Below are positions 3,001 through 6,000 of a stretch of 64,000 nt of DNA, piece by piece. Source of the DNA: Callorhinchus milii. Lineage: Eukaryota. The stretch spans positions 3,100,001 through 3,164,000 of the forward strand of contig NW_024704749.1 of NCBI RefSeq assembly GCF_018977255.1, given 5' to 3'. Positions within the stretch are counted from its first letter, which is position 1. Each line of letters opens with the position of its first letter. The position numbers are program-made.

Positions 3001-6000
3001 ATCTACAACGATACAGAGAATAATAACGATACAGCTTTGAAGGTACAACAAGGGGAAAACATTAACATGAAATAATGCAAACTTGAGCTGTTGAAATAAA
3101 CTGCAGTGACAACTACAGGTGTTAAACCGTCATCGAAATGCTGCAAAGAGGAAGTTGGTTTCTCGACAGCGGGATCGGGGCACTCCGGTACCCACAAGAT
3201 GGTGGGGGGGGGGGGGGGGGGGGGGTCGGGGGAGGAACATTCTCCGGTAAATCCTCCATGAGCTTTTGGGGGAGGGTACATTTTCTCGTTTCATGCATCT
3301 GATTGCCTGATGGACAGCAGCTTTTAAATATGATGTTACTCCTTTTGGCAATATAAAAGCTTAGCGTAAAGATTGTATTAAATGTTGTAGTAAATGGTTA
3401 CGTATACACGTTTATTTAGTTCTATAGACATTGGTGGGCTGACTTTTAATTCATTTGCAGTTTAATTTCAAAGTTGGTTGTTTTTCACGAACCTCATGAA
3501 ATCGCTCTCAGATAACGACCGCAATTAACAATTTTCCCAAATTCTGCGCAATAAGTTTAAATTTTAGGACGCAATAGTTTGGGGGCTCCAATTAATTAAA
3601 CGCAATTACAACTGCTGACGCCTCTGTGCCACACTGGAGAAGAAGTTTGAGGCAGGACAGCAAGATGCTGAATGTGCTATTCGTGTTCCTTTGTGTGTGT
3701 ATAATTTTATGATGGAATATTGCTTCCCGTATGACGGCATTCTGTAGATTTGCCATTTTATTACATACTTAACGTTTATCTAAATATTCATACATTAATA
3801 ACAAATAAACTAGTTGTTTTGGAAAAAGAAAGAATGATATCAAAAAGAGAAATTGAAGAAAAAGAGGACAATGGAAGAGACATTTTATTAAGCTGTGGCT
3901 TATGGTATTTCTGTAATTTTACACAATGGGTTTGATCATTGAAGCGTGTTCACATTGCAAGATACAACCATTCAATTCCAGCAAATTGACAAATATTATT
4001 CTTGCCGGTTTTAAGGCAATACAAGAAACATCTAAATGCCATTTCCTTCGGTTTAGAAATTTATCGAAAGTGTTTACAAAGTGAATCTGTTTCTCAATTT
4101 GGACATTCCTGGTAAAATGAACTTCAATTTCAAAATACCACAAAGGTAGATATTCGATTAGCGCTCCACATTCTTGATTTAGGTACAACTGGATCTGGCG
4201 ATGCTTTTCTCGAGCGGAGTGGTCAGAGTCTGGTGTTTGACCACACAGGAATACAGGTCGTGTGACTCCCACTCGGAGGTTGGCAGAGTCAGATAACTGC
4301 TCACACTGTACGTGTTGTCCGCCTGCTGTTTGATCGCACTCGTTTCAACACCTTGACTTCTGGCACTGCCATCCACAGTCCACTCGACCTCCACAGCTCC
4401 CGGGATAAAATCATTCACCAGACACACCAGGGTCGCCTTGCTCTTTGCTGTGATTTGATCTGGTGAAGGCGGAAGGACAGTCACCGAAGGGCCCTGTGAG
4501 TCTGGAAGGAAAAAAAATAGTATTCAGATCATGTCCACTACATGATTAATTAAAATAGTTGAAATTATTTTTCTTAATATCTTAAGATTACAATCGTCCT
4601 GTTCAATCGCACGACACAACTTCAAGATCGCTAATAACTACAACAATACAGTAATTCACATTCGCGTAAATGGCAGAACATTTTCTTGTCTATTGACGGT
4701 ACTGTTCAATTGTGGCAAAGTCTATCTATATCAAGGGAACAATCAGTGCTGGGGTCACTACTGATAGACAAATGTCTGGGGGCTGCTCATCATACACACT
4801 TCATTATTATACATACTATCATTAGTTGGCGGATGAGCGGTTAAACAGGGACCACATGTTCAAAATATTCCTGTATTGAAGAAATTAAATCTTACAATCG
4901 ACAGAAATAACACCAGACACTAACATATCCCGTCACAGGAAGTATATGGCGGGAACACCTGATTGAAAGCGCAGTAACACATTATTGTTAATTCTATCCA
5001 TTGTTTCCCTTCACAGAGGAGAGAACGTGCAGCAAATGGATATAAATATCTGTCTGTGTTTTCAACTGAACACCCAATTGCGACTAATTCAGTGTAAATC
5101 TAAATACGCATTATTCGGCTTTAAATCCAATTATGCGCAATCTGACCTTCCTTGACAACGGAGCTGCTAATCTTTGAGCGATGTTTGGGATTTGAAGAAT
5201 CGCCATTCACGAATGTAGGTCATTTGTTATTCATATCTCAAAATGTTATTATTTACCAATACAATCAGAATATTATTAATCTCAAAATCAAATTGAATCT
5301 TGTTGGAGTGACTATGACATACCGATAAAAATAACAGCCGAATGCTTTCACCCCAACTATAAATAAGCAGATCCATCAATGATGGGGGTTTTTTACAGTC
5401 ACAGCAGCAGATACAAAGATTGTGAAAATCTCTTTTCAGCAAACAGAAAATCAATTCAGGAGCACAATCAGGTTCCAATATTTCAATCGCTGCGGAAAGT
5501 AACTTCACAAGTCTTCAATAATTGATTTGGCATCGTGTTAACTGAATTTAGTCCCTAATTAACAGCGCACTACAGTTACAGTTAATGCATAGGTCGGGAT
5601 CCTCACAACTAATAGGAAACAATGAAGTTAATTTTCAAAGGAGAAAATATATTTTGTGTGTTGAGCGGATTGAGCCGTCTCTCGGGCTGTGGCTTCTCTC
5701 ACAGTTGATCAAATCTGAACAATTACAGCCACTTGGTGGTGGAACATGTGACATTCATGAGTATTTGCTGTTCATTGCAGTTGTGCTCCCCTGAGTGACA
5801 TGAAACACGGAATTGGGAGAAAATAAAACATTTGAAGAAATCCAAAAAGAAATCTGCAGAAAATGTTAAAATAGAAGCGTTTTCTAAGGGGAGGAATAAT
5901 ATTTCCAAGTCATATTATTGTTGTGGAGTAAGGAAACTGGCCCAAGGTTTCACCCTGCTGGAAATCGAAACCAAGTCTCTCGCTTACAAAGCAAGTACTC

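What the first reader, a model, noticed from the sequence alone, without database searches (positions are those of the whole stretch)
4233..4498. 266-bp identical tract between orphan C1 and functional C2: gene conversion, or one VJ serving two C exons
By eye, 4233-4498 and 14021-14286 are identical including synonymous sites, while flanking introns differ visibly. The last ~45 coding nt differ at 7 positions (QTLTTPLEKSIAR vs ESLTIPLEKTITR). At 5 of these 7, C1 agrees with pseudo-C3. This mosaic points to recent conversion. C1 lies ~10 kb downstream of C2 in the same orientation with an intact acceptor, so read-through splicing VJ to C1 could give a second C-terminal isoform from one invariant VJ (inference).
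Basis: partly seen in the sequence, partly recalled or inferred. Interest (0 to 1): 0.65.

Follow-up and report, generated by a model that had tools for sequence, protein, structure and literature searches.

The report
Homogenised antibody light-chain constant exons
Two neighbouring copies of an elephant-shark antibody light-chain constant exon share a 266-base stretch that is letter-for-letter identical, most likely because one copy overwrote the other; this is an ordinary process in antibody gene families, and one of the two copies has lost its variable-region partner through a deletion.

Summary
Window 4233-4498 and 14021-14286 are identical at 266 of 266 bases, bounded by mismatches on both sides. 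The surrounding 2.5-kb duplicated units differ at about 12% of aligned bases.

The window is Callorhinchus milii (elephant shark) lambda/type II light-chain DNA, with genes on the minus strand. It holds one complete germline-joined leader-VJ-C cluster (C2), an intact orphan C exon (C1) and a decayed C3.

C1 is orphan because a 2,992-bp deletion removed the promoter, leader, VJ and 301 bp of the J-C intron.

Identity at synonymous sites beats chance even if only fourfold sites count in the exon: a run of 64 neutral sites, permutation P=0.009. The 51-nt coding tail has a different ancestry (Fisher P=0.0013).

Non-allelic gene conversion within a concertedly evolving family is the best reading.

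The "one VJ, two C exons" idea has no support:
- C2 keeps a conserved AATAAA.
- 0 of 84 retrieved light-chain sequences combine C1's two ends.
- The proposed diagnostic tail is also encoded by another expressed cluster.

This is a new member of a known kind, of modest interest.

The parts
4233..4498 (-). Identical tract, copy in orphan C1 exon
   Evidence: 266 of 266 identical to 14021-14286; bounded by mismatches at 4232 and 4499
14021..14286 (-). Identical tract, copy in C2 exon of the complete cluster
4179..4501 (-). C1: intact lambda C exon (2 nt of a split codon, 106 codons, TAA), with no V, J, leader or promoter of its own
   Evidence: Pfam C1-set E=1.7e-28; acceptor AG at 4503-4502 and stop TAA; no V or J found by tblastn or motif scan
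13967..14289 (-). C2: C exon of the complete germline-joined cluster
   Evidence: Pfam C1-set E=8.6e-29; 106 of 106 residues identical to the C region of cDNA-derived P0139 / AFK10769.1
16019..16369 (-). Germline-joined VJ exon (FR1 through FGKGTKLSLK, then A|gtaagt donor)
   Evidence: Open frame through V and J; Pfam V-set E=7.2e-17; no RSS
16460..16508 (-). Leader exon (MGNWLRVLAALLLCLH plus 1 nt)
   Evidence: matches the leaders of C. milii light-chain cDNAs
16634..16641 (-). ATTTGCAT octamer upstream of the leader (promoter element; its role is recalled knowledge)
13660..13665 (-). AATAAA poly(A) signal of C2, about 300 nt after the stop. The matching sites are 3884-3889 (C1) and 27529-27534 (C3)
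27844..28166 (-). Pseudo-C3: acceptor AG changed to AA, in-frame TAA; 10 differences from C1=C2 inside the tract
5919..5922 (-). Deletion junction in cluster 1. J-C intron homology ends at 5919 and homology to a truncated tRNA-derived SINE starts at 5922
   Evidence: Rfam tRNA hits at 5955-6017(-) and its counterpart at 18737-18809(-)
15718..18709 (-). 2,992 bp present in cluster 2 and missing from cluster 1: 301 bp of J-C intron, VJ, leader, promoter and SINE copies
4182..4232 (-). C1 coding tail with 7 differences from C2 and a discordant ancestry
3444..5919 (-). Cluster-1 unit homologous to 13209-15717 of cluster 2 (86.7% over 2,535 columns)

Best explanation
The window holds part of the Callorhinchus milii lambda (type II) light-chain multi-cluster family, arranged as tandem units of about 9.5 kb on the minus strand. 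Cluster 2 is a complete germline-joined leader-VJ-C gene. Cluster 1 is a copy of the same unit that lost 2,992 bp (promoter, leader, VJ and the first 301 bp of the J-C intron) by a simple deletion with one end inside a SINE. What remains is an intact but promoter-less C exon with its intron remnant, 3'UTR and poly(A) signal.

The 266-bp identity between C1 and C2 is the footprint of non-allelic (ectopic) gene conversion in the germ line. Either one copy converted the other, or both were converted from a third family member. The event is much younger than the duplication that made the units. The exon is the longest stretch kept similar by selection on the protein, so it is where homologous repair can pair (inference). 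The 51-nt coding tail escaped this event and carries patches shared with other clusters. The C exon is therefore a mosaic within a concertedly evolving family.

Shown: the identity, the flank divergence, the synonymous-site test, the tail incongruence, the deletion and the family context. Inferred: the mechanism, its timing, and that C1 is not expressed.
For: Identity and flanks: 266 of 266 identical, against 11.9% substitution divergence in the intron (167 of 1,403) and 11.8% in the 3' flank (86 of 726).

Synonymous sites: 0 differences at 63.3 synonymous sites, P=3.3e-4. At the 47 fourfold sites, P=2.6e-3.

Neutral-site run: 64 sites, scan-corrected permutation P=0.009. All-site run of 266 was reached in 0 of 2,000 shuffles.

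C3: although it is a pseudogene, it differs from C1=C2 at only 10 of 266 tract positions (9 replacements including a stop, 1 synonymous). Its 3'UTR differs at 76 of 285 and 72 of 297 positions. The exon was therefore homogenised across all three copies later than the units diverged.

Tail incongruence: C1=C3 patterns are 5 of 11 informative sites in the tail against 5 of 87 in the neighbouring segments, Fisher P=0.0013.

Family context:
- The 12 best hits to the C1 exon are all C. milii light chains at 91-99% identity.
- The 77 C regions of 106 aa give 36 distinct sequences that vary at 14 columns. All four combinations occur at 18 of 78 column pairs.

C2 is real and expressed: 106 of 106 residues match P0139.

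Deletion. No V, J or RSS lies near C1.

[quoted passage not shown] Promoters appear associated only with V segments (PMC5192425).
Against: - Only three copies could be compared at the nucleotide level, because no other C. milii genomic or transcript DNA was reachable.
- The tract lies wholly inside the exon and starts 3 nt from its 5' end, so purifying selection is confounded with conversion.
- With more conservative nulls the support weakens. Using the 3'UTR rate (5.4%), P(0 synonymous differences)=0.03, and 0.07 for fourfold sites.
- Scaling by C3's distance, 3.5 differences are expected and P(0)=0.03.
- The direction and the donor are unknown.
- The four-combination test is at the protein level. 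Recurrent mutation, somatic hypermutation or cDNA errors could inflate it.
- No second assembly or read data were available to exclude a polishing artefact.
Confidence: 0.75

Rival explanations
1. Purifying selection alone. The two exons have stayed identical since the duplication because every site, including synonymous ones, is constrained. No conversion occurred.
For: The protein core is nearly invariant across at least 10 expressed cluster types and is 80-84% identical in Hydrolagus colliei. The tract coincides with the exon. The 3'UTR is also more conserved than the intron, at 16 of 290.
Against: - Synonymous and fourfold sites are all identical (P=3.3e-4 and 2.6e-3), and the neutral-site run has P=0.009.
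- C1 has no V, J or promoter, so selection on it is hard to see.
- The core tolerates replacements among expressed paralogues (7 variable columns in the core).
- The tail of the same exon differs at 7 of 51 positions, 5 of them replacements.
- Pseudogene C3 keeps 256 of 266 tract positions while its flanks are about 25% diverged.
Confidence: 0.1
2. Assembly or polishing artefact. Reads from one C exon, or from other family members, were used to correct both copies, which created a false identical block.
For: The family has many near-identical C exons, a situation in which read mis-mapping during polishing is possible (inference). No read data could be examined.
Against: - The block has sharp single-base edges, with private differences kept immediately outside it.
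- C2's complete exon, including its unique tail, matches an independent cDNA at 106 of 106 residues.
- C1's encoded core equals that of many cDNAs.
- C3 nearby keeps its own 10 differences.
Confidence: 0.07
3. Dual use. Transcripts from the single VJ read through C2 and splice to C1, giving a second C-terminal isoform. C1 is kept intact because it is used.
For: - C1 has an intact acceptor, reading frame, stop and AATAAA, and is in the same orientation 9.8 kb downstream.
- None of C1's 106 codons carries a residue unseen in expressed family members.
- Two Ensembl-type models (P0134, P0140) join one VJ, 115 of 116 identical to the window's, to two different C regions. Neither C is C1 or C2, and these are predictions.
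Against: - C2 is a terminal exon with a conserved AATAAA and an acceptor as good as C1's.
- 11 sense AATAAA hexamers, C2's own among them, and a sense-oriented LINE lie between the exons.
- 0 of 84 retrieved sequences combine NSQGP with the QTL tail; 11 have NSQGP and 2 have KHQTLTT.
- The only sequence carrying C2's tail has the NPQ junction.
- Only 15 of the 108 members of one protein cluster could be seen, and no RNA-seq was available.
Confidence: 0.05

Closest known systems
Germline-joined lambda (type II / NS3) light-chain clusters of cartilaginous fishes
   Same: Cluster 2 has the leader-VJ-C layout, with V and J fused in frame and no RSS. It has a C1-set C exon ending in Cys, and its closest named relatives are C. 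milii 'immunoglobulin light chain' cDNAs and shark 'lambda-1 light chain-like' proteins, including a sandbar shark lambda chain. Two reviews state in the passages read that all lambda genes studied are germline-joined (PMC4279169, PMC5192425).
   Different: C1 and C3 are not clusters. They are single C exons without V or J, one made by a 2,992-bp deletion and one decayed.
Human J-lambda/C-lambda tandem array (seven J-C units, three of them pseudogenes)
   Same: Both are tandem, highly similar C-lambda exons with functional and pseudogene copies. [quoted passage not shown] The few-residue isotype differences (Mcg/Ke/Oz, recalled) resemble the tail variants here.
   Different: Each human C has its own J and draws on a shared V pool by somatic rearrangement. 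Here each unit carries its own pre-joined VJ, and C1 has no J at all.
Gene-converted C-domain exons of nurse shark UrIg2
   Same: Near-identical Ig C-domain exons in a cartilaginous fish were ascribed by the authors to duplication followed by homogenisation by gene conversion (PMC12227049, passages read).
   Different: Those are exons within one gene. Here the exchange is between separate gene units 9.8 kb apart.
IgM/IgD co-expression and shark inter-cluster heavy-chain switching (models for one V region serving two C regions)
   Same: [quoted passage not shown]
   Different: Both concern heavy chains. No light-chain example is known to me, and nothing found here shows that it happens.

Membership tests
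Cartilaginous-fish lambda (type II) germline-joined IgL cluster | V-set domain and J motif (FGxGTxL) fused in one open exon, with no RSS | tested here: met
   VJ exon 16369-16019 is open through FGKGTKLSLK. Pfam V-set E=7.2e-17. Only 2 weak RSS-like matches in the window, both inside SINE copies.
Cartilaginous-fish lambda (type II) germline-joined IgL cluster | Single C1-set constant exon with a C-terminal cysteine, joined through a phase-1 J-C intron | tested here: met
   C1-set E=1.7e-28 (C1) and 8.6e-29 (C2). Both end in ...RSSCT. J donor A|gtaagt and acceptor ag|AC.
Cartilaginous-fish lambda (type II) germline-joined IgL cluster | Closest relatives are named lambda/type II chains | tested here: met
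   The 12 best hits are C. milii light chains at 91-99%. Further hits are 'lambda-1 light chain-like' of many sharks and rays and a sandbar shark Ig lambda chain (P0079). No isotype phylogeny was made.
Cartilaginous-fish lambda (type II) germline-joined IgL cluster | A complete unit: promoter, leader, VJ and C together | tested here: not met
   Met for cluster 2 only. C1 and C3 have no leader, V or J. C1 lacks them because of a 2,992-bp deletion.
Non-allelic gene conversion tract | Identity in the tract significantly above the flanks, including at synonymous sites | tested here: met
   0 of 266 against about 12% in the flanks. P(0 synonymous)=3.3e-4. Neutral-site run P=0.009. Weaker under conservative nulls, P=0.03-0.07.
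Non-allelic gene conversion tract | Adjacent segments support different relationships among the copies (mosaic) | tested here: met
   In the tail, C1=C3 at 5 sites, C2=C3 at 2 and C1=C2 at 4. In the tract plus 3'UTR the counts are 5, 10 and 72. Fisher P=0.0013.
Non-allelic gene conversion tract | Donor and direction identified; tract reproduced in independent data | not testable with these tools
   No other C. milii genomic DNA, reads or second assembly could be reached.
Alternative terminal C-exon use (one VJ, two C) | Transcripts joining the VJ to the distal C | tested here: inconclusive
   0 of 84 retrieved protein sequences combine C1's NSQGP start with its QTL tail. Only 15 of 108 members of one cluster were visible, and no RNA-seq was available.
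Alternative terminal C-exon use (one VJ, two C) | A weak or absent poly(A) or acceptor signal at the proximal C that would allow read-through | tested here: not met
   C2 has a canonical AATAAA that is conserved in all three copies, and an acceptor equal to C1's apart from one T.

The most novel reading that the evidence does not exclude
The promoter-less but fully intact C1 exon is not a relic. It is used as a second terminal exon by the upstream germline-joined VJ, by read-through and skipping of C2, or after a switch-like recombination between clusters. One fixed binding site would then be made with two C-terminal (strand-G) variants. Repeated conversion from working copies keeps C1 usable.
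Probability: 0.05. Interest if true: 0.6.

Novelty: new member of a known kind. Interest (0 to 1): 0.25.

Why it matters
It gives a clean, base-resolved example of how the multi-cluster antibody genes of a chimaera stay uniform in their constant domain while their surroundings drift apart. It also shows that an exon stripped of its V, J and promoter can remain letter-perfect. For annotators, C exons in these arrays cannot be assigned to transcripts by their protein tails, because the tails are shared and reshuffled among clusters. For evolutionary immunology the value is modest. Concerted evolution of Ig constant genes is well known. The one unusual possibility, a single pre-joined VJ serving two constant exons, has no support here.

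Tried and rejected
- GENECONV-style test on polymorphic sites of the three copies. With three sequences the tract holds only 10 informative sites, all C1=C2, which is too few. I used synonymous-site and neutral-site run tests instead.
- Search for a hidden V or J upstream of C1 or C3. tblastn with VJ and C2 at E up to 10, an FGxG motif scan in six frames and an RSS scan found nothing near them. One spurious motif hit lies at 32079.
- Looking for cDNAs that prove C1 use. C1's tail occurs in P0173 and P0182, but these have a KPQ junction and a different V (91 and 90 of 116), so they come from another cluster.
- Assigning cDNA P0139 to cluster 2. Its C is 106 of 106 C2, but its V is nearer to another genomic model (111 of 116 to P0131, against 108 of 116 to the window). 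This is unresolved.
- Literature on conversion between shark light-chain C exons. Five searches returned general reviews and the UrIg2 case, and no paper on C. milii lambda C-exon conversion or orphan C exons. PMC2192082 is held only as abstract and references, and PMC2193156 mentions conversion only for chicken.
- The main text of the elephant shark genome paper says nothing on light chains. Its Supplementary Note XI could not be opened and may describe these clusters.
- Rfam scan. It found only the tRNA-like heads of SINE copies, 9 hits.
- Not done: structure prediction, complex prediction and the representative-protein search. They would not bear on the question.
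Full report
WHAT IS THERE

The window has one N, at 57198. Nothing in it was taken for human.

The finding's features lie on the minus strand. Stop-to-stop frames and Pfam give the following:
- Two intact immunoglobulin C1-set exons. C1 is 4501-4179 (E=1.7e-28) and C2 is 14289-13967 (E=8.6e-29).
- A third, broken copy, C3, at 28166-27844. Its acceptor AG has become AA and it has an in-frame TAA.

Upstream of C2 only, there is a full gene head:
- A leader exon at 16508-16460, MGNWLRVLAALLLCLH plus one base.
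- A 90-bp intron.
- A VJ exon at 16369-16019 that runs without interruption from FR1 through FGKGTKLSLK to an A|gtaagt donor. Pfam V-set E=7.2e-17. No RSS is present.
- An ATTTGCAT octamer at 16641-16634.

A second, diverged germline-joined VJ (about 51704-52037) and C exon (53384-53715) lie on the plus strand. They are 43% and 53% identical at the protein level to the VJ and C2.

ORGANISM AND FAMILY

I searched exon by exon and did not search any joined VJ-C model.
- The C1 exon's 12 best hits, of 48 with E<=0.001, are all Callorhinchus milii light chains at 91-99% identity. Next come Hydrolagus colliei (80-84%) and 'lambda-1 light chain-like' proteins of many sharks and rays.
- The VJ exon found the same family and a sandbar shark lambda chain.
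- The C4 exon is 100% identical over 95% of its length to a C. milii RefSeq model.

Reviews state, in the passages I read, that light-chain genes of cartilaginous fish are organised as many V-J-C clusters, and that all lambda (type II) genes studied are germline-joined (PMC4279169, PMC5192425). Cluster 2 is thus an ordinary member of a known kind.

THE OBSERVATION

- 4233-4498 equals 14021-14286 at 266 of 266 bases. Mismatches lie immediately outside on both sides.
- The tract sits in a pair of duplicated units, 3444-5919 and 13209-15717, that align over 2,535 columns with 346 differing columns.
- Substitution divergence is 167 of 1,403 (11.9%) in the intron, 86 of 726 (11.8%) in the 3' flank, 16 of 290 (5.5%) in the 3'UTR up to the AATAAA, and 7 of 51 in the coding tail.
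- The next-longest identical runs are 52, 51 and 49 bases.
- The seven tail differences are 5 replacements and 2 synonymous. The 5-to-2 agreement of C1 and C2 with C3 is as described.

IS IT MORE THAN SELECTION ON THE PROTEIN?

- The tract holds 63.3 synonymous-equivalent sites and 47 fourfold sites, all identical. At the intron rate, P(no difference) is 3.3e-4 and 2.6e-3. At the lower 3'UTR rate it is 0.03 and 0.07.
- As a scan-corrected and deliberately harsh test, I kept only fourfold sites inside the exon and all non-coding columns (2,271 sites, 339 differences). The longest identical run is 64 sites, from 4516 to 4224, and 0.9% of 20,000 shuffles reach it.
- Scaling by the distance to C3 predicts 3.5 differences, P(0)=0.03.
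- C3 is informative. It is a pseudogene whose 3'UTR differs from C1 and C2 at 76 of 285 and 72 of 297 positions. Within the tract it differs at only 10 of 266, and 9 of those are replacements, including the stop. That is what neutral decay after a later homogenisation looks like. It is not what long-term purifying selection looks like.

Homogenisation of the exon is therefore real. Its strength of support depends on the null chosen, and I report the weak figures alongside the strong ones.

MOSAIC

- In the 54 nt of tail plus stop, the site patterns are C1=C2 at 4, C1=C3 at 5 and C2=C3 at 2. In the tract plus 3'UTR they are 72, 5 and 10. Fisher P=0.0013.
- The tail is more diverged (7 of 54) than the segments on either side of it (0 of 266 and 16 of 290). 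This suggests imported patches rather than in-place mutation (inference).
- The protein data agree. Among 84 retrieved sequences with the family's core motif (82 C. milii, 2 Hydrolagus; one 108-member cluster was seen only as 15 members):
  - C2's ESLTIP is shared with the P0010 group, which carries C1's NSQ start.
  - C1's entire tail occurs in P0173 and P0182, with a KPQ junction and another V.
  - C2's exact exon occurs once, in P0139.
- The 77 full-length C regions give 36 distinct sequences that vary at 14 columns. Among the 13 haplotypes seen at least twice or genomic, 18 of 78 column pairs show all four combinations. This is protein-level evidence only, and recurrent or somatic changes could contribute.

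WHY C1 IS AN ORPHAN

- Homology between clusters 1 and 2 runs 3444-5919 to 13209-15717. It resumes at 5922-6127 to 18710-18915 and 6196-6505 to 18913-19223.
- Base-level alignment puts the junction at 5922|5919, which corresponds to 18710 and 15717.
- Cluster 1 therefore lacks 2,992 bp. This stretch holds 301 bp of J-C intron, the VJ, the leader, the promoter and several SINE copies.
- The upstream break is inside a tRNA-derived SINE that both clusters share. Rfam tRNA hits lie at 5955-6017 and 18737-18809.
- No V or J motif lies between C2 and C1, or near C3.
- C3's homology to the other units stops about 12 bp upstream of its exon.

DUAL USE OF ONE VJ

Nothing found supports it.
- C2 is a terminal exon with an AATAAA at 13665-13660 that is conserved in all three copies.
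- Its acceptor matches C1's apart from one T.
- Between C2's stop and C1's acceptor there are 11 sense AATAAA hexamers, the first of them C2's own, and a sense-oriented reverse-transcriptase element at 6972-8906.
- 0 of 84 sequences combine NSQGP with the QTL tail. 11 have NSQGP and 2 have KHQTLTT.
- A review passage says promoters appear associated only with V segments (PMC5192425).

Two Ensembl-type models join one VJ, 115 of 116 identical to the window's, to two different C regions. Neither C is C1 or C2, and these are predictions.

No RNA-seq could be searched, so this reading stays untested. I give it about 5%.

VERDICT

- The conversion reading is supported and extended: a family-wide mosaic, and an orphan created by a defined deletion.
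- The dual-C reading is unsupported.
- This is a new example of concerted evolution of tandem Ig constant exons, comparable to the human C-lambda array (PMC2188323, abstract) and to the converted UrIg2 C exons of nurse shark (PMC12227049, passages).

Five literature searches found no description of this C. milii case.

Noticed in passing
window 51704-52037 (+) and 53384-53715 (+): A second, diverged germline-joined VJ and C exon lie on the opposite strand, head-to-head with the lambda array (43% and 53% protein identity to VJ and C2). Its FR1 is odd (it starts ...RCQWTVDPNCAPGEKITLDC) and I identified no leader exon. The C exon is 100% identical to a C. milii RefSeq model that fuses it to a transposon-like exon at 47141-47452.
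   Followed up: partly
proteins P0139, P0131 and window VJ 16019-16369: cDNA-derived P0139 carries C2's exact exon (106 of 106). Its V is closer to another genomic model (111 of 116 to P0131) than to the window's VJ (108 of 116), and its leader has F where the window has L. It could be an allele, a further cluster, an inter-cluster exchange or a library chimera.
   Followed up: partly
proteins P0134 and P0140 (UniRef A0A4W3JAE8, A0A4W3IGK1): Two predicted proteins share one VJ (115 of 116 identical to the window's) but end in two different C regions, neither of them C1 or C2. Automatic annotation has thus already drawn 'one VJ, two C' models somewhere in this family.
   Followed up: no
window 6972-8906 (-) and 21714-23643 (+): Two copies of a reverse-transcriptase (RVT_1) retroelement, 91.9% identical, are inserted in opposite orientations in clusters 1 and 3 and are absent from cluster 2. 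Further, more diverged copies lie at about 29.2-30.2, 31.1-31.9, 40.3-40.9, 42.1-44.3 and 58.4-59.3 kb.
   Followed up: no
window, e.g. 17964-18292, 39110-39435, 25493-25822, 30222-30529, 62866-63197: A tRNA-derived SINE family of about 330 bp is present in many copies at 80-97% identity, with 9 Rfam tRNA hits at their heads. One copy forms the upstream edge of the deletion that orphaned C1.
   Followed up: partly
window 28179-29230: Homology of the C3 unit to the C1 and C2 units ends about 12 bp upstream of the C3 exon, so its J-C intron has been replaced by unrelated sequence. The cause was not examined.
   Followed up: no
window 3860-4181 vs 13640-13966: The 3'UTRs of C1 and C2 differ at only 16 of 290 aligned bases, half the intron rate, although C1 has no promoter. 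This could be an older and longer conversion tract, or constraint on the UTR.
   Followed up: partly
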